64,000 bases of DNA from Gonapodya sp. JEL0774 (Eukaryota), in assembly GCA_027604505.1 (NCBI GenBank), contig JADIIX010000124.1, forward strand, positions 1 to 64,000, written 5' to 3'. A program made the translations under genes and the position numbers. This document shows, piece after piece, positions 1 to 37,929 of this stretch; position 1 is the stretch's first letter; each line of letters opens with the position of its first letter. The notes under the pieces are model-generated. The model was given only the letters and a program-made list of their open reading frames with translations. It was not told the DNA's origin and ran no database searches.

Positions 1-1391
1 GAACGAAATCATGGGTTTTAACGTGCCATCACGAGAAGGATGTGTTGACCAGGTGGCACTGGCCATGTGGAAGGCCTTCTTTGATGTTGAGAGATTTGAA
101 ACAGCCAACCACAAGTTTGCGTTGAGGTGCGTACGAATTTGGGTGATCACGTTTTGGAGTCATGGTAATCTTGACGATTGGTCATTCTTCCATCCACCCC
201 TTCACTACCAACAACTTCACTCAGCATTCGGTCAGATGGCACAAGTTTGCGGCTGCATATGCGGAAGCCCGTGGCGTCTGGAGTGCCGCTCAAATTGTCA
301 GAGTATTTGAAGAAACCTCCTGAGGAACGAAGCTTGGTTGGAAAGCGGGTGGGATCCTGTGATCCAGGTCGAGACCACACGACATTTCACGCATCAGTGG
401 ACGTCCCCGACAACCTCAAGATGCCTCGACCGTATCTCCGCACAAAAGACGATTCTGGATGGGATGCTGACTACAATAGTGGCTTCTCTACAAGGGAGTA
501 CTACGATCTCGCAGGTTTCACCTCCGCCAGGTGAGCCTATTGCTGGCATGTGGAGACTTGGAATTTTAAGCAAGTTTAAACTCAAAATGTTTGTACATTG
601 GCAGGAATCTCCGCCAAAAGTGGATGGACAACAACAAGGAGATACGGCGAATAAATAAGAACATGCCCTCCCCCAAAACTGCGGAACCAGCCAGCCTACA
701 CCTGTATCTCGTGTTTTTCCTGAATCATTTGGGGCAAATGCTTGACTTCTATAGTCAGCATTGTTGGAGAAAGTGAGTGAACGAGTCATGATTTTGTGAT
801 CACGCAACGAAATGGTGATCTTTTGAATTTATCGCTCCACCTTTCCCACGCAGGCTTCGATTCAAGTCCAAGATTGGCCAACAACGGGCCCTTTCAAAGC
901 TCGTCGAGCGATTTACCCAAGGAAGAAAGCCGTCCGATTGCATCATTGCATGGGGTGCCGCCTCGTTCAACCAGTCCAGTCCCGGACATCCTACGAGTCC
1001 CAACAAACTCATTCGTAGAATGTTTGTGTCTGCTGGAGTGTTGGTAGTACTTATCGATGAATTTCGGACAAGTCGGATCTGCTCTGTTTGCCATGAATAT
1101 TTTCCCAAGAACCAAGGGGTAAAACAGAAGCTATGGGGTGTGAGGTGAGTGGTTTTGAAAGTTCCAAGCTCATCTGCCAACTGGTTTTAGCACAATGTTA
1201 TATTTTGTATTCGTGTTTTGCACTCAAACTTCAACAGATCATGTTCAACTCCAAACTGTGGTGTCACTTGGAACCGCGACCTAAATGCCGCGAGGAACAT
1301 TCTCTATCTCTTCTTCTACGCAAACGCGCGCTTCATTGAGGGTGTCGACCGTCAGATCCAACCCGGCCACTTCAACCGAAGGAACAACTAA
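1..1391 (+). CDS. Fanzor (Fanzor1-like, TnpB-family RNA-guided endonuclease), 5' end outside window, 5 exons visible
   Basis: Exons <1-126, 225-530, 605-772, 854-1144 and 1238-1391, joined by GT-AG introns, give one open frame: ...WKAFFDVERFETANHKFALSIRSDGTSL...RVGSCDPGR (RuvC-I D, 361-363)...STREYYDLAGF...LRFKSKIGQQRALSKL...IIAWGAASF...VVLIDEFRTSRICSVCH (RuvC-II E, 1059-1061; CxxC)...LWGVRSCSTPNCGVTWNRDLNAARNIL (RuvC-III D, 1278-1280)...RRNN*. Confidence 0.92.
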
Positions 1392-1559
1392 ACTCTCGCA
1401 TCGACCTTCATTGTGGGTATCTTACTGTGTATTGTCCTTCTTTCAAAAGACTAACTGCGGTTTATTTAAGTTTTGATTTCATTATCTTTCTGTTCTCACA
1501 ATCCACATCCCAGATCTCCATCTCCTCAATCAATTTTCGAATTTCTTTTTTCGTCCACG

Positions 1560-1860
1560 GTATCTCTCCCAAACCATAGGGAGGTGCTTATGATCCTTCA
1601 GGTGAAGCACTTGGCTCGGTGGGGCCCCTTACTGGGTCCTGGCAGGTTGGTGTAGCTACTTAGGCAGTCTGGGATCCCTGGGCAGGTGAGATGACGGAGT
1701 GGCTCACCAACCTGGAGCAAAATCTGATGCTGGAAAGATACTAGTACAAGTAGTTGTGTGCGTTTAGTGTCTGTGCACCGGGTGCACAGACCTCCTACTG
1801 CCCTTGAAATACTTGTACATCTGTACTCTCGAATGAACTTTCCTCGCATAACATAGAAAT
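1560..1860 (+). ncRNA. Candidate Fanzor omega-RNA scaffold / structured right end of the element
   Basis: Dense inverted repeats downstream of the Fanzor stop: ctccc/gggag (1566-1583), gtgctt/aagcac (1584-1610), gggccc/gggtcc (1622-1639), caggttggtg/caccaacctg (1643-1652/1705-1714), and gtacaagta/tacttgtac (1744-1752/1810-1818) enclosing the hairpin tctgtgcacc-g-ggtgcacaga (1770-1790). The RNA identity is inferred. Confidence 0.5.
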
Positions 1861-1861
1861 C

Positions 1862-2208
1862 ATGCACACTCATTCGAAATAGATTGCTAGAGCTGCATTA
1901 CTTGATTTCTATTGTAAAAATATGAACTAAGCACATACACATGTGATAATCTACTGAGGGGATGTTTACAGGAACAAGTCAATCTACGATCCCGGTAGAT
2001 GGATGCGGAACGAGAGTTTAGTGAACGTTAGCCGTTGCAGGAGGGCCCTGCAACGTTGCCCGGGGACCACCACGGGGAGGTGTTCACTGCGGTTCAGAGG
2101 ACATTGAGACACAAACGACGAAGAAAGGGAGGAAGAACTCATGGGCCACGAAGGCAAACTCACCTATAGGTCCCCATTATATAAATTTCATTCCAACTCG
2201 ATTCATCA
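1862..2208 (+). repeat. Dispersed repeat family A, left part (inverted copy at ~37589-37929)
   Basis: The stretch aacgttagccgttgcaggagggccctgcaacgttgcccggggaccacca...gaagaaagggaggaagaactcatg...aaggcaaactcacctataggtccccat matches the reverse complement of 37.6-37.9 kb. Confidence 0.85.
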
Positions 2209-4285
2209 GCCATCTTCGCACCATTTGCCTACATACGATACCCCCCCGGACGTCGCATAGCCCGCAGGCGACCACGCGTCGTCCTGGGCACACCAACCCA
2301 CTCCCTGGGTAAACCCATATCTGAGGAGTGGGCGGAGGGCTTTCATCGGAGAGTTGGGATTGACCGAGCAGGAACCGTCCACTATGCGCATCGTTCTGCT
2401 CCACGCTGGCGTAGTTGATGCACGAGCGACTTGGGGTTGCCCCCAAGAACAACATGGCCGAAACCATGATGCCACGTTCACAGGGGATGGCACGCACAAG
2501 GACGAATCCAAGCTTGTGTTCCTCCGCTGGCTACTGGTCGCACCACCTTGTCCGGCACGCACTGGCGTGTAGGCTAGGCTCTAAAAGCAAAATCGAAGGA
2601 TGGCGTCAATTGAGAATGAGAACGATGCCATCAAAAGGGTTTGCCGGCGACTCACGCGACATGACGGCTGGATTGGTGAGTGGGTGTCGATTTCATGGTC
2701 GAAAAGTTTGGGAGCAACGAATTCAGGTTGGCCTTTTATATGCCTTCGAGGGTGCAGCAAAGTGTGCACTGCGCATGGGTCGCAGCTCCTTTGCCACGAA
2801 AATGTGCCGCAGCACAATCGGCATACACAAGCCTTGCCCCGAAGATGCCGGTATCACGTCCTCGGAACGCGTAGAGGTGCAATCAAATTATTGATGGGAC
2901 GCTCTGGCAGATTCTTGGCTGGCGAACCGAACGATGTCTTCATTTCCTCGATTGAACGCTTCATTGTCAACAAAACGCATATGCAAGTTTCCATTTAGGT
3001 TTTGCTTGTACCTTTCGAACAAGCAGGCTTCAAAAGAGGTTCCGGTTGTCCAGCTCGACGAAAGGGGCGGCCCAGAGCCACGTGAAGGCCCAGAATAGCA
3101 CGAATAATCAACAATCAGCTCAATCAAAGAGATTCTTCACGCGCGTGAACAGAAGACTCCCTGGTTTTATCCACCTCCTGCTTCGTTCCATCGTCGGGAC
3201 CGTCCGCCCAGACACTAAAGACCCGAGTGTACGCCCGAAACCTGCAAATGTGTCTCGTACGAATGTAAGCGGGGCGTTTGAGACGACCCGGCTGTGGTGA
3301 AGAGCGTCCCCTGAGCTCGTGTTGGGCGCCTTCCACCCAGCGTCACAGACGTGATCCATTCTGCCTCACACTGCGTTGGACCGCGTTCCAGCTCCACTCG
3401 AGGTCGGTACGAAGTCAATTCCAGGAGAAATACTGCGCAAATCGACTGTGAAAGACTGTTTGGCAAGTGGCAACACACGTCATCCTTGCACTGAGGCTCC
3501 CAAGATACACACTGGTCAGTGTATTCACACGCCACCACCGCATCCCACGTAAACAAAAGATCGATTGTTTCTTTTCAACATCCAGGTTCTTCCATCTCAC
3601 TCACGCGGGGCCGTTCCCCACTCCTTTCCACACTTTCCGTCGTCCTCTGCAAGCCCTGGCATGTCGCATCCGCACATGTTTTTTACTCAATCCATCAGTG
3701 ACTGGTCATAACTGATCGGACTATTACGGAGAGGACCGCTTCGTGCCGTTCAGAGAACGTCTTCCGAGTCATGTACATATCTCTACCATTATTGACGCAA
3801 ACTGATAGTGGCATATTCAGCCTCCTCAGTGCACTTCCAATGTGTGACTTCCATCATTCGTTACACCTTTATAATTCCAAAACCGGGACAGATGGCATGG
3901 GATGTTCGGAATTGCGAATGGGGGGGACGGAAGGGGCTCGTCATGCCGACGTGCCGGCCGGACAGCTCCGTTCGGTAGCTGTGGAGCTGTAGAGCGATAA
4001 ATAATTCCGTTGCAAGTGATTGTAGTGGTGTTGGTGGGAGCACAGATCGCTGCTTGTTGTTACCATTATTCGTGGCGAGTATGTTGACCAGGCAAAATTG
4101 GTGCCTGCACGCGGTTGTTTGGTCACAGTGGAACATTCCCGCAAAGCTCGCGCTTTTAATTTGGGGTTTATCTTGAGGTGGAGGTTCAAATTGTGAGCAT
4201 GGGAGTACAATTTTCGTTTTCGTATCTCTCTCGCGCTCCTCAATCTTGTACTAATAAATCATCTGCACAGTGCGGTCTCAACTGT

Positions 4286-4520
4286 TTCATCACATCCGCG
4301 GTAGCCTTATGGACTGTATCCACATCGTTAGCGTACACGCTCATGTGGTGGATGAGGAACAGAACCCAAACCAGTTTTAAATCAGCGTGTTCGACCGAGA
4401 CAAGCGTTACCCTGAACCAAACTCCGTGAGCGAAAACGATCCGTGAGCATAGGGTCACCATCCAACAGCAGAACATGTACTCTCGAGACTAGTTCCCCTT
4501 TTGGGGCCCGGATTCTCTCG
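4286..4520 (+). repeat. Dispersed repeat family A, right part (inverted copy at ~37352-37595)
   Basis: cttatggactg..tc.acatcgt...cgctcatg..gtggatgagga...aacccaaa...cgatccgtgagcata...gtactctcgag...agttccc..ttt.ggg.cc.g.attctctc is shared with the reverse complement of 37.35-37.6 kb. Confidence 0.8.
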
Positions 4521-4849
4521 CAATCGTAAAATGAGGTTGGATTACGGGCAGCAACTTTCCGGAGCGCAATCTAGACGGGGTCCGTCTCTGCCCCTCCTCC
4601 GTAGCGTTGGATTGCTGGTTGCCAACTCAAGAAGCACCGGACTTCTAAACCGGGCATGCCGGGTGGATTGTCTTAGATCCTGTCCCGGACTCACTGAAAT
4701 CACCAAGCAAAGCGGATTATAGACAGTGCATGATCTGGCCCCGATGCATGATTAGATGAAAAGCATGGGATTCAGTTTGTGAGACTGTCTTGGAAATGTT
4801 CCTCGTTCTGAGTCCGTCCAGAGAGGACAGGGGGTGTGTTGCACAAGCA

Positions 4850-4979
4850 GTCGGAGATTATTGTCCACAGGCTGGTAGCCAAAGAACCCAAGCCCTGTCA
4901 GGCGACGCAAAAGGAAAACGAATTTAGAGGCTGACCAGTTGCAAAACGCCTGGAAGGATCTTTGGCGATGCATTTCTTA
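4850..4979 (+). repeat. Dispersed repeat family B, copy 1 (direct copy at 13710-13825)
   Basis: gtcggagatt...tgtccacaggc...agaacccaagccctgt.aggcgacgcaa...ggaaaac.aatttagag.ctgaccagt...cctggaaggatctttggcgat.catttctta is present at both sites. Confidence 0.85.
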
Positions 4980-8439: not shown

Positions 8440-10050
8440 CTATAAACTAACACGAGAGAGATAATGTTCCTCCGATGGAAACCGAAATGTGAGTCCAGAA
8501 GAGGGCCGATTGGATAGCAATGGTATTTCAAGGTCAAGGCTTCCCGAGTTGTGACAAGCAGTGAAACGCTCATTTTCATGCTGTTCTATTGTCCCGGGAC
8601 TTTTCAGAAGTCCTCCATATGCTCTCATTTTCAGTCGTCTGAGTACCATTCCCCTTTGTAGCGAATACGGAATCTCCCCCATTTCGAAAAACGGGTCAGC
8701 TCCTCGGGCCAATTTTTCGGCAATCATGTTATATAGGTTGCGTCCAGCCGCATTGCGACTGTAATTGTACTCGAACATTCGAGGACATTGCCCGCGACAC
8801 TTTCCCATTCCAATAGACATCAGAAATTTAGAAGCGAGAGATTGGCTCTTATATGTAGCACTGTCGCAGTTGCTTGTCGATGTTGGTGATGTCGGTGGAA
8901 CTTGCAAAGCTCGCTCCAAAGCGGAACGAACCTCCGCTTCTGACCATCCTAAACTCTTGACCATCTTGCTCACAACGGCTGGTTCAATTTCTTGAACTTG
9001 GTGGAAGCTCCCAATAAAGTTGGTGGGTTCGCTCAGGTTATGCTTTACTCTGATATGCTTGGCCCACGATGAGGAGAGTGCGTCGGCAATGTTTGGGCGC
9101 TGATCAGCATCAAATTGCAGCATATCTTTGAGAAGTGCCGCAAGTTCCGGGGCAAGTCTTTTCTTGTCCATCAACAAGCATCTTCTTTTACAGACGGTAG
9201 GTGATAGACCACCATCTTCATTGGGGTTGCGGTATGCATGTTGCAGCTGGGCAACTGTCAATCCAAGAGAGTAAACATCGCTTTTCTGGGACACGAATGC
9301 AAAACGATTCCTGCATTCTGGAGCTTCGTACGCTCGGGTACCACCGAGAAATCGAACAGTGCCGTCTGACAGTGCTTGGAGGACTGTACCCCAATCGACC
9401 AACGTGGGCGTTCCATCCTCGCTCACCACATAATTTGCGGGCTTTACATCACCGTAATAGAATCCAAACATATGGACATTGTTGAGCCCAATAAAGAGTC
9501 GGTACAGCAACAGTTCAAAAATTGCATCAAACTTTCTCTTGCCCGAGGGGGAGCTTCGAGCTTGAACTCCAAGTGACTTCGCAAATTCAAGGGCAGTTAA
9601 ATCGCCTGCATGAGCAGTAACAATATAAAGAGAGTCCAGTGTCTGCACGACCTGCAGAGTTTCTGCTAGGTATTCCAATCCTGATAGAAGTAGACCGGTT
9701 TGTGCTTCTGCTACGTTTGGTGACAGTGTGAATTGGTCCCCAGTTGTCTTCTTGATGACTACGAAGCGGCCGCTCTTCTTATCTTGCGCTTTCCAGACTT
9801 CAATTGACTGTCCACCGGCCACCAGCGGAGAGAAGTTTTCATAATCGGCGGCAAATATGTCCTGAGCCGTCATTCCAGAGTTCTTCACATAGACAAATAC
9901 TTGATCTCTGTGATCGCGTTGAGAGTCTAACTTCTCAGAAATCGCTTGCGGCTCGTAAGAAGACTCTTCGTTTGTGATTTTGGCTTGGCCTGAAAAGTAC
10001 AAACATTCGTATTGGGATGCATGGTCTCGAATCAGACGATGTGGAATCAC
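8440..10050 (-). CDS. Divergent Ser/Thr protein kinase (single long ORF)
   Basis: VVIKK (subdomain II), YGDVKPANYVV (catalytic loop), LVDWGT (DFG variant), GGTRAYEAPE, KSDVYSLG and RPNIADAL. The first in-frame ATG is near 9873. Confidence 0.85.
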   Translation of the reverse strand: MIPHRLIRDHASQYECLYFSGQAKITNEESSYEPQAISEKLDSQRDHRDQVFVYVKNSGMTAQDIFAADYENFSPLVAGGQSIEVWKAQDKKSGRFVVIKKTTGDQFTLSPNVAEAQTGLLLSGLEYLAETLQVVQTLDSLYIVTAHAGDLTALEFAKSLGVQARSSPSGKRKFDAIFELLLYRLFIGLNNVHMFGFYYGDVKPANYVVSEDGTPTLVDWGTVLQALSDGTVRFLGGTRAYEAPECRNRFAFVSQKSDVYSLGLTVAQLQHAYRNPNEDGGLSPTVCKRRCLLMDKKRLAPELAALLKDMLQFDADQRPNIADALSSSWAKHIRVKHNLSEPTNFIGSFHQVQEIEPAVVSKMVKSLGWSEAEVRSALERALQVPPTSPTSTSNCDSATYKSQSLASKFLMSIGMGKCRGQCPRMFEYNYSRNAAGRNLYNMIAEKLARGADPFFEMGEIPYSLQRGMVLRRLKMRAYGGLLKSPGTIEQHENERFTACHNSGSLDLEIPLLSNRPSSGLTFRFPSEEHYLSRVSL

Positions 10051-10115
10051 CCACTATTTAAACATGAGGTCTTCACATTTGTCAATGAAGTCTACAATGC
10101 AATATGAATGAGGAT

Positions 10116-13630: not shown

Positions 13631-13709
13631 GTGTGCGATGCGAGAATACGAGATTCTGTACTCCGTGCGCGAGTGTGGAATGGGAAGACGCGACTGCCCT
13701 GCGCAAGGG

Positions 13710-13825
13710 GTCGGAGATTTTTTTTGTCCACAGGCAGAGAACCCAAGCCCTGTTAGGCGACGCAAGGAAAACAAATTTAGAGACTGACCAGTGACCTGGA
13801 AGGATCTTTGGCGATACATTTCTTA
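13710..13825 (+). repeat. Dispersed repeat family B, copy 2
   Basis: Direct, diverged copy of 4850-4979. Confidence 0.85.
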
Positions 13826-37351: not shown

Positions 37352-37929
37352 GAGAGAATTCAGGCCCAAAAGTGGGAACTCACTCGAGAGTACACGTTTC
37401 TGTTGTTGCGCGCTTTCCACTTATGCTCACGGATCGCTTTGCTCACGCGATCGCTCTGCTCACAGAGTGTGAGTTGGAGGCAACGGTTGTCTCCGTCGGA
37501 CGCGCGGACTAAAAGGTTGATTTGGGTTGTGCTCCTCATCCACTGCATGAGCGCGTACGATGTCGATGCAGTCCATAAGACCCAGATCGATGAATGGAGT
37601 TGGAATTGAGTGAGATTTGGAGGATGGGGACCTATAGGTGAGTTTGCCTTCGTGGCGCATGAGTTCTTCCTCCCTTTCTTCGTCGTCTGTGTCTCAATGT
37701 CCTCTCCAGCGCAGTGAACACCTCCCCTGTGGTGGTCCCCGGGCAACGTTGCAGGGCCCTCCTGCAACGGCTAACGTGCACCGAACTCTGGTTCCGCTGC
37801 ATCTACCGAGATCGGAAGATTGACTTGTTCCTTGAAATGTCCCCTTAGTAGCTTATTAGTTCATGTGTATGGGTAGTTCATCTTTTAAAATAGAAATCAT
37901 CACCTGATCAATTTCATTTGAGTGTGCAT
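37352..37929 (-). repeat. Dispersed repeat family A, uninterrupted inverted copy
   Basis: Its reverse complement aligns contiguously to 1862-2208 and then to 4286-4520. Confidence 0.85.

What the first reader, a model, noticed from the sequence alone, without database searches (positions are those of the whole stretch)
1560..1860. Hairpin-dense segment 3' of the Fanzor: candidate omega-RNA and element right end
Seen: at least six stems within 260 bp, including a 10-bp pair (1643-1652/1705-1714) and a 9-bp pair (1744-1752/1810-1818) that encloses a near-perfect palindrome (1770-1790). From about 1862 the sequence matches an unrelated repeat that also occurs at 37.9 kb without any Fanzor. Established: TnpB/Fanzor guide scaffolds are encoded at the element's right end, with the guide taken from flanking DNA. 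Inference: the scaffold ends at about 1820-1860 and the next ~15-20 nt would be the guide. A weaker alternative stem spans the stop codon (1337-1348 with 1401-1410).
Basis: partly seen in the sequence, partly recalled or inferred. Interest (0 to 1): 0.75.

Follow-up and report, generated by a model that had tools for sequence, protein, structure and literature searches.

The report
Distant guide-RNA candidate of fungal Fanzor
Two strongly folding hairpin blocks lie 250 to 430 bases after an intron-containing Fanzor nuclease gene in a water fungus, and they are likely (about even odds) the scaffold of the guide RNA that would aim the enzyme at DNA, a known kind of system, though neither a second copy nor RNA data was available to prove it.

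Summary
The stems are real. 1643-1818 is the only cluster of three perfect inverted repeats of 9 bp or more in 64 kb, and 1560-1860 folds better than shuffles (z -2.6). Only two blocks beat chance, 1643-1714 and 1744-1818. The 1555-1645 hairpins and the stop-spanning stem do not. The gene is a four-intron Fanzor1 of Gonapodya with an intact catalytic triad. Best reading (0.5): the blocks are its omega-RNA scaffold, with the right end near 1818-1822 and the guide just beyond. Against: related elements end 28-202 nt after the stop, not about 430. No sequence or covariance-model link to 98 related loci was found. Strongest folding marks the inferred end in only 6 of 17 relatives. No genome or reads were held, so covariation is untested. 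The repeat from 1862 is confirmed and carries an antisense HDV-like ribozyme fold with an intron-like insert. The scan noted Fanzor guide-RNA ends in other genomes before, but no look-alike of this DNA.

The parts
2..1391 (+). Fanzor1 gene, 5' part cut off by the window start. Exons 2(53)-126, 225-530, 605-772, 854-1144, 1238-1391 (stop); four GT-AG introns of 74-98 nt. RuvC D, E and D plus four zinc-finger cysteines are intact.
   Evidence: Spliced frame open for 347 codons and identical to P0001 except for 17 extra N-terminal residues and 21 internal residues that P0001 omits. Pfam TNB domain. Family profile best PDB hit SpuFz1, E 1e-31. Predicted fold best matches SpuFz1, E 2e-7.
1392..1559 (+). 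AT- and T-rich, unstructured 3' region, with a possible 3'-UTR intron at 1413-1513 (inferred, untested)
   Evidence: z +0.33 for 1392-1520. Candidate splice sites listed. GC 0.36 against 0.38-0.46 in the gene's introns and 0.50 in exons. The branch-point heuristic did not discriminate.
1560..1642 (+). Three short predicted hairpins, no better than chance; possibly the 5' part of the RNA, possibly nothing
   Evidence: z +0.12; helices listed
1643..1714 (+). Block A: long hairpin, 18 pairs on the 3' arm (10 perfect plus 8 with G-U) and an inner 7-bp stem
   Evidence: Pair probability 0.98. -37.7 kcal/mol on plus against -27.8 on minus; z -2.86 against -2.19.
1744..1818 (+). Block B: 9-bp enclosing stem around the 1769-1791 palindrome; candidate terminal domain of the scaffold and candidate right end (1818, or 1822 with a bulged 4-bp extension)
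   Evidence: Pair probability 0.99-1.0. z -3.1/-3.4 as RNA and -4.4 as DNA on both strands. The two main stems are all Watson-Crick, so strand and molecule are not told apart.
1819..1836 (+). Candidate guide segment (inferred); 1822-1836 matches 37394-37380 on the minus strand at 14 of 15
   Evidence: 6 of 250 random runs of ten start positions reach such a match; found post hoc
1862..2207 (.). Host repeat, with a second copy inverted at 37929-37589. The same copy continues in 4306-4807 after a 2.1-kb insert (2208-4305). It sets the outer limit of the Fanzor element.
2021..2175 (-). HDV-like ribozyme fold in the repeat, antisense to the Fanzor: P1, P1.1, P2, P3, P4 and the catalytic C (2031) are all present. 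Predicted cut just 5' of 2175; activity untested.
   Evidence: Rfam RF02682, 30 bits (gathering score 44), E 0.0025 in a 1.2-kb search and 0.13 window-wide. All elements parsed in both copies.
2087..2163 (-). 77-nt intron-like stretch (GTGAGT ... CAG) filling the ribozyme's J1/2 linker in both copies; splicing untested
   Evidence: GTGAGT is the donor of two of the Fanzor's four introns and is 2.2-fold enriched in the window.

Best explanation
The two strongly folding blocks at 1643-1818 are likely the omega-RNA scaffold and right end of the intron-containing Fanzor1 element whose gene stops at 1391. Shown: an intact Fanzor1 C-terminal half on the same strand, an unstructured AT-rich spacer, two non-random hairpin blocks, and an unrelated host repeat from 1862. 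Inferred from characterised Fanzors: the transcript would run through the 3' UTR and the element end. The Fanzor would bind and trim out an RNA of about 190 nt (1643 to about 1836) or only its last 90 nt. Block B would be the terminal stem ending at the element boundary (1818-1822), and the next 15 or so bases of flanking DNA would be the guide, directing RuvC cleavage of DNA that carries the same sequence next to a target-adjacent motif, such as an empty allele. The long spacer would be a later addition (a 3'-UTR intron or an insertion).
For: (1) The gene is Fanzor1 with D, E, D and the zinc finger intact, so an RNA partner is expected (PMC10432273, PMC10530073; passages). (2) All 13 windows of 90 nt ending 10-190 nt after the stop have positive z (+0.36 to +2.89), while the best window near the inferred end had negative z in 17 of 17 relatives (14 shuffles each, noisy). 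This argues against the usual proximal site. (3) The blocks are the only cluster of three perfect inverted repeats in 64 kb and lie between the stop and the repeat boundary. (4) G-U pairs and energy favour the plus (Fanzor) strand for block A. (5) An enclosing stem that ends at the element boundary is covarying in 16 related viral Fanzor ends (13 of 23 pairs with double changes, mostly in the other helices; the terminal helix is 99% paired with 1 of 7 pairs changing on both sides). Block B has that shape and a similar size. (6) Precedent: the four-intron Chlamydomonas Fanzor's RNA starts about 100 bp after the last exon, in the 3' UTR (PMC10312701 passages). Listed Fanzor1 RNAs span 71-229 nt. 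One related copy has its end pushed about 740 nt away by an insertion (L062).
Against: (1) In 50 of the 52 related loci that gave a divergence point (98 examined, about ten families), sequence shared with another copy ends 28-202 nt after the stop. The other two are one insertion case and one weak hit that I dropped. Here the end would lie at about 430 nt, or about 330 if the candidate intron is spliced. (2) No nucleotide similarity beyond the stop to any of 98 loci. The viral-end model R1 finds nothing at this locus, the block B model R2 finds nothing in 98 loci, and the best alignment (L045) is not significant after 71 tests. (3) Strongest folding marks the inferred end in only 6 of 17 relatives (about 2 expected by chance), and several relatives have windows with z below -3.4 outside the element. 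(4) My test for a contiguous stem ending at the boundary did not separate ends from background (3 of 25). (5) Block B's main stems are pure Watson-Crick and fold as well on the minus strand and as DNA. (6) No 7-bp first stem-loop of the kind described for SpuFz1, GtFz1 and PpFz1 could be picked out with confidence.
Confidence: 0.5

Rival explanations
1. The Fanzor element ends within about 200 nt of its stop like its relatives (or has lost its end), and the hairpin blocks are DNA-level palindromes of a different small mobile element (a Helitron-like end or MITE) lying between the Fanzor and the repeat.
For: Distances in relatives are 28-202 nt. Inferred ends in relatives often fold weakly (best z only -0.2 to -1.3 in 8 of 17). 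Block B is strand-symmetric and scores best as DNA (z -4.4). On the minus strand a CTAG followed by T lies at 1744-1740, 24 nt after the palindrome, and Helitron1 ends are a subterminal hairpin plus CTRR (PMC3627910 passages).
Against: No window ending within 190 nt of the stop folds better than its shuffles. No target-site duplication is visible around either block (read). CTRR motifs are common (23 in 1392-2300 on both strands). No second copy of either block exists in the 64 kb. G-U pairs in block A suit RNA better than DNA.
Confidence: 0.25
2. 1643-1822 is an independent small RNA, such as an H/ACA-type snoRNA (hairpin, hinge, hairpin, ACA), unrelated to the Fanzor.
For: Two hairpins and a hinge. 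An ANANNA motif lies at 1738-1743 and ACA at 1817-1819, 15 nt below the top of an internal loop in one fold of block B. The 14-16 nt rule is recalled knowledge, from no call.
Against: No Rfam match in 1560-1860 at E up to 10. ACA sits at the 3' foot of 17 of 136 comparable stems in the window. The ANANNA motif is 24 nt from the foot of block A, and block A has no pocket at the right distance. No rRNA target could be tested.
Confidence: 0.1
3. The blocks are the downstream part of a minus-strand transcript that begins at the HDV-like ribozyme cut (2175) and runs through the repeat towards the Fanzor.
For: The ribozyme fold is complete and points that way. Block B folds equally well on the minus strand.
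Against: The second copy of the repeat has no similar sequence beyond 37930 (alignment scores 24 and 29 against shuffles of 23.5-23.7 with sd 2.9-3.5; extension not significant). The whole segment folds worse on the minus strand (-94.3 against -108.8 kcal/mol).
Confidence: 0.07
4. An ordinary structured 3' UTR or a chance cluster of inverted repeats with no guide function.
For: 2 of 122 other tiles fold as well. Windows with z below -3.4 occur in flanks of related loci. The Gonapodya Fanzors are old and diverged (47-48% identity among paralogues) and may no longer use a guide.
Against: The cluster is unique in 64 kb and lies exactly in the interval where the RNA is expected. The nuclease keeps all catalytic residues.
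Confidence: 0.08

Closest known systems
Fanzor1 omega-RNAs of Spizellomyces punctatus, Guillardia theta and Parasitella parasitica (Saito 2023 PMC10432273; Xu 2024 PMC11423790)
   Same: Same nuclease family by profile and fold; structured non-coding sequence 3' of the gene on the sense strand; candidate terminal stem followed by flanking DNA.
   Different: Those RNAs are 75-150 nt and, for SpuFz1 and GtFz1, start at or overlap the stop codon. Here the structure starts about 250 nt after the stop, the gene has at least four introns, no sequence likeness is visible, and a 7-bp first stem-loop was not identified.
Chlamydomonas reinhardtii CRe-1 / CrFNuc in Helitron2 (Jiang 2023 PMC10530073 and preprint PMC10312701; Bao and Jurka 2013 PMC3627910)
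   Same: Intron-containing Fanzor1 whose guide RNA lies inside the 3' UTR, beginning about 100 bp after the last exon and crossing the element end.
   Different: That case has six copies, small-RNA data, asymmetric terminal repeats and target-site duplications. Here there is one copy, no left end, no RNA data and no transposon family assigned.
Fanzor1 of Gonapodya prolifera listed in Saito 2023 supplement (KXS17374.1, branch FZ1)
   Same: Same genus; its N-terminus resembles the paralogues P0002 and P0011 by eye.
   Different: Listed only as a tree node; no RNA is given for it in the files I could read.
HDV-like self-cleaving ribozymes, including fungal ones (Li and Breaker 2017 PMC5640933; Rfam RF02682, RF00094)
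   Same: The neighbouring repeat has the full nested-pseudoknot layout. Fungal examples are known and two were shown to cleave.
   Different: This one has a G-C first pair, a plain P4 and an 81-nt J1/2 that looks like a spliceosomal intron. It is antisense to the Fanzor, so it cannot trim the guide RNA's end.

Membership tests
Fanzor1 nuclease | C-terminal motif D-X(125,275)-[TS][TS]-X-X-C4 zinc finger-X(5,50)-RD (PMC3627910) | tested here: met
   D88 to T272 spacing is 183, four cysteines are present and RD falls at 310-311 in the 347-codon model; the last cysteine is 5 residues before RD. Definition read.
Fanzor1 nuclease | Rearranged RuvC-II: glycine at the canonical glutamate, with an alternative glutamate downstream (PMC10530073) | tested here: met
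   G234 and E269, conserved in alignment A1. The spacing is 35 residues against about 45 in the paper.
Fanzor1 nuclease | Closest structural relatives are Fanzor1, not Fanzor2 or TnpB | tested here: met
   Profile: SpuFz1 1e-31, GtFz1 4e-16, PpFz1 4e-15, against 3e-7 or worse for the rest. Foldseek top five are SpuFz1 and GtFz1 (model pLDDT 69, pTM 0.62). The single-sequence search found no Fanzor1 at E up to 1.
Fanzor omega-RNA | Encoded 3' of the gene on the sense strand, inside the element | tested here: inconclusive
   Position and strand fit, but the element end is unknown and the distance exceeds that of uninterrupted relatives.
Fanzor omega-RNA | Conserved among copies up to a sharp boundary, then variable | not testable with these tools
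   No genome held, no runs listed, no second copy in the window, no close relative in viral or prokaryotic contigs.
Fanzor omega-RNA | Covarying secondary structure | not testable with these tools
   Only one sequence; no homologue among 98 loci.
Fanzor omega-RNA | First stem-loop of seven base pairs (PMC11423790) | tested here: inconclusive
   Several 6-7 bp hairpins exist (1565-1584, 1598-1614, 1621-1640), none above chance and none clearly equivalent.
Fanzor omega-RNA | Stem ending at the scaffold-guide boundary | tested here: inconclusive
   Block B has the shape and viral relatives show it, but my score did not separate ends from background (3 of 25).
Fanzor omega-RNA | Expressed as a small RNA, bound by the Fanzor, and programs cleavage | not testable with these tools
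   Needs RNA reads or a pull-down.
H/ACA snoRNA | Hairpin, H box, hairpin, ACA three bases from the end, with pockets 14-16 nt above each box (definition recalled, from no call) | tested here: not met
   The second hairpin fits in one fold. The first has no pocket at that distance, and the ANANNA motif is 24 nt from its foot. No Rfam hit.
Helitron 3' end | Subterminal hairpin followed by CTRR (Helitron1), or asymmetric terminal repeat plus hairpin (Helitron2) (PMC3627910) | tested here: inconclusive
   Minus-strand CTAG 24 nt after the palindrome; no copies or left end to test.
HDV-like ribozyme (2175-2021, minus strand) | P1, P1.1, P2, P3, P4 nested pseudoknot with the catalytic C in J4/2 | tested here: met
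   All parsed in both copies. P1 is 7 of 7 in both; P2 is 6 of 6 in this copy and 5 of 6 in the second. The Rfam score of 30 bits is below the gathering score of 44.
HDV-like ribozyme (2175-2021, minus strand) | Self-cleavage | not testable with these tools
   Needs in vitro transcription.

The most novel reading that the evidence does not exclude
An intron-rich, long-resident fungal Fanzor1 keeps its guide scaffold far out in a spliced 3' UTR, and its guide (1822-1836) is aimed at a host repeat family that carries intron-interrupted HDV-like ribozymes (14 of 15 match to the second copy, 11-base core in the first). That would make it a eukaryotic RNA-guided nuclease with an endogenous repeat target rather than just its own empty site.
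Probability: 0.06. Interest if true: 0.72.

Novelty: new member of a known kind. Interest (0 to 1): 0.32.

Why it matters
If right, it supplies a testable guide-RNA scaffold for an uncharacterised, intron-rich clade of fungal Fanzor1 nucleases. It would also show that such scaffolds can lie 250-430 nt from the stop codon, where searches anchored on the stop would miss them. The one intron-containing Fanzor described as tested in the passages I read bound its RNA but did not cut (PMC10530073), so whether assimilated Fanzors remain active nucleases is open. The kind of system is well known, so the gain is a new example, not a new principle. No held paper holds both Gonapodya and Fanzor, TnpB or ribozyme in its main text; two G. 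prolifera Fanzors appear as rows in a supplement.

Tried and rejected
No sequencing run was listed, which is no evidence either way, so no reads could be laid. Rfam gave nothing in 1560-1860, ARAGORN found no tRNA, and no telomerase-template, Sm or B-box motif was found. The palindrome has no exact match in viral contigs, and 1392-2250 has no match in phage records. P0001 and P0004 found no close loci in viral or prokaryotic contigs. Two word-based protein searches returned only P0001. An apparent extension of the repeat's homology to 1825, which would have pinned the right end, was rejected: one search used an anchor off by one base (22 of 300 shuffles as good), and the corrected test gave 80 of 150. 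Similarity of the segment to the flank of L045 (z 5.1) was rejected: p 0.0016 under one scoring and 0.01-0.11 under three others, before correcting for 71 tests. A shared short hairpin with L068 is likewise not significant. The stem-at-the-end score failed calibration. Models R1 and R2 found no cross-hits. No Rfam ribozyme was found in 19 related loci. The protein tree is a quick one with 5 short rows left out; it groups the gene with P0002 and has no sampled locus close by. The first exon model had two boundaries wrong and was corrected. Supplement figures that show RNA positions (Saito files 1 and 2, Xu supplementary figures, Jiang fig. S6) could not be read and may bear on distances.

Full report
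Setting. The window's first gene is identical, after splicing, to P0001, which its source names as a partial hypothetical protein of a Gonapodya species, an early-diverging aquatic fungus (the description of the genus is recalled). The gene runs off the start of the window. Four GT-AG introns (127-224, 531-604, 773-853, 1145-1237) give an open frame of 347 codons to the stop at 1389-1391. The deposited model lacks the first 17 residues of this frame and omits 21 internal residues that hold the catalytic glutamate and two zinc-finger cysteines; read through, all catalytic residues are present. A profile of 22 relatives hits SpuFz1 at E 1e-31, ahead of GtFz1 and PpFz1 and far ahead of TnpB and Fanzor2. 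The predicted fold agrees. The nearest proteins are two paralogues from the same source organism at 47-48% identity and a G. prolifera fragment, then aphelid and metagenomic Fanzors. So this is a Fanzor1 from an old, diverged Gonapodya family.

The observation. The segment 1560-1860 folds at -108.8 kcal/mol, z -2.60, 0 of 100 shuffles as good; the minus strand gives -94.3, z -2.17, 2 of 100. Of 122 tiles of 260 nt, 2 fold as well or better. The window holds 15 perfect inverted repeats of 9 bp or more with spacers up to 70 nt; three lie in 1643-1818, the only cluster of three. Cutting the segment up shows where the signal is. Block A (1643-1714) is an 18-pair stem with G-U pairs, clearly better on the plus strand. 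Block B (1744-1818) is a 9-bp stem around an 11-bp palindrome; both main stems are pure Watson-Crick and score as well on either strand and as DNA. The three hairpins in 1555-1645 (z +0.12), the stop-spanning region (z +0.46) and 1392-1520 (z +0.33) are ordinary.

The right-hand neighbour. 1862-2207 matches 37929-37589 inverted at 83%. The same second copy continues into 4306-4807, so the left copy holds a 2.1-kb insert. The homology stops at 1862: an apparent extension to 1825 failed a corrected shuffle test (80 of 150). Any Fanzor right end must therefore lie between 1392 and 1862. The repeat carries an HDV-like ribozyme fold on the minus strand. Rfam saw its core (30 bits, below the gathering score). 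Parsing by hand found the missing P1 5' strand 81 nt upstream, giving a complete fold at 2175-2021 and at 37626-37781 in the second copy. The 81-nt linker is almost entirely a 77-nt stretch that begins with the commonest donor of the Fanzor's own introns and ends in CAG, in both copies. Fungal HDV-like ribozymes are known (PMC5640933, passages; I was led to this paper by earlier notes of the scan). Being antisense, this one cannot process the Fanzor RNA.

What relatives say. No genome or reads were available, so the decisive copy comparison could not be run. None resembles the window beyond the stop codon. For 52 of the 98, another copy showed where shared sequence ends. In 50 this was 28-202 nt after the stop; these fall into about ten families, one of them a large viral group, and two of the 50 mark an insertion point rather than the end. 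L027 rested on one weak hit and was dropped, and L062 has its last 24 nt displaced by an insertion of about 740 nt. In 16 viral ends the RNA is well supported: 13 of 23 pairs change on both sides and none of 500 shuffles reaches that, a control that does not correct for kinship. Its shape is a first stem-loop, an A-rich linker and an enclosing stem that stops at the element end. A model of it finds nothing at this locus, and a model of block B finds nothing in the 98 loci. These loci are distant: the quick tree puts no sampled locus near the gene, so the blanks are weak evidence.

How much does folding prove? I calibrated it on 17 relatives with an inferred end. The best-folding 90-nt window within 620 nt of the stop ended near that point in 6 of 17, against about 2 by chance, so strength of folding alone is right about a third of the time. 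A second pattern helps the distal reading: the best window near the inferred end had negative z in 17 of 17, whereas in the window all 13 windows ending 10-190 nt after the stop are positive. That spacer is also intron-like in make-up and has candidate splice sites at 1413-1513, though my branch-point test was uninformative. A score for a contiguous stem ending at the boundary failed calibration (3 of 25) and is not counted as support.

Published frame. SpuFz1's RNA lies between the stop and the terminal repeat, with a 75-nt scaffold and a 14-15 nt guide from flanking DNA; GtFz1's overlaps the coding end (PMC10432273, passages). Lengths vary from 75 to 150 nt, with a conserved 7-bp first stem-loop and free variation beyond (PMC11423790, passages and Table S3). 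The Fanzor1 rows of Saito's supplementary file 5, read whole, span 71-229 nt. The four-intron Chlamydomonas Fanzor has its RNA in the 3' UTR, starting about 100 bp after the last exon (PMC10312701, passages); it bound the RNA but no cleavage was seen (PMC10530073, passages). Helitron end features are from PMC3627910 (passages). Gonapodya appears with Fanzor only in two rows of Saito's supplementary file 3. It was not found in Jiang's two supplements or in main-text searches. I read no paper in full.

Mechanism, most likely. Shown: an intact nuclease gene, an unstructured spacer, two non-random blocks on the sense strand, and a host repeat beyond. Inferred: a read-through transcript, binding and trimming by the Fanzor, block B as the terminal stem ending at 1818-1822, and a guide of about 15 nt from the flank. 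I put this at 0.5. Within it, the end at 1818-1822 is favoured over an end after block A (1714), but not proved.

A lead. The 15 bases 1822-1836 match 37394-37380 (minus) at 14 of 15, inside the second copy of the flanking repeat. An 11-base core also lies at 4476-4486 in the first copy. Six of 250 random runs of ten starts do as well. The test was made after seeing the match, so it is a hint only: either chance, a trace of the insertion site, or a guide aimed at the repeat family.

Verdict. At best this is a new member of a known kind. Interest 0.32.

Noticed in passing
window 2175-2021 (minus) and 37626-37781 (plus): Two copies of a complete HDV-like ribozyme fold whose 81-nt J1/2 linker is nearly all a 77-nt intron-like stretch; splicing would shorten the linker to about 4 nt and keep P2 intact. 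One paper search (listing only) showed no title describing a spliceosomal intron inside an HDV-like ribozyme. Cleavage and splicing are untested; this may deserve its own follow-up.
   Followed up: partly
window about 1045-1110: The deposited protein model P0001 splices out 63 in-frame bases that encode the catalytic glutamate and two zinc-finger cysteines; probably a gene-prediction error.
   Followed up: yes
window 127-224, 531-604, 773-853, 1145-1237: All four Fanzor introns are in phase 2 (read).
   Followed up: no
window 2208-4305: A 2.1-kb insert relative to the repeat copy at 37.6 kb; no target-site duplication seen, and no Pfam hit in the open frames tested.
   Followed up: partly
window 4840-4979 and 13700-13825: A further shared stretch (78% identity, same strand); at 13.7 kb it lies in the start of a 290-codon minus-strand frame with no Pfam hit.
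   Followed up: no
window 1853-1862 with 1903-1912: A fourth perfect 10-bp inverted repeat straddles the repeat boundary; only its right arm is shared with the second copy.
   Followed up: no
L038, L044, L049, L050, L059, L067, L079, L084, L087, L089, L090, L092, L094-L097, last ~120 nt before the element end: A covarying Fanzor1 right-end RNA family in giant-virus-like contigs (13 of 23 pairs with double changes); model R1 was built from it.
   Followed up: partly
L062 (also L063, L064), 116 nt after the stop: An insertion of about 740 nt sits 24 nt inside the right end of a multi-copy Fanzor, which would disrupt its guide RNA.
   Followed up: no
L001, L010, L012, L016, last 25 nt before the known or likely end: Distant Fanzors share a short terminal hairpin motif about 10 nt before the end (seen; z 1.6 for L001 against L012, not significant).
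   Followed up: partly
window 8440-10053 (minus): A 537-codon intron-free protein kinase frame (Pfam Pkinase, E 4e-20) in an otherwise intron-rich genome.
   Followed up: no
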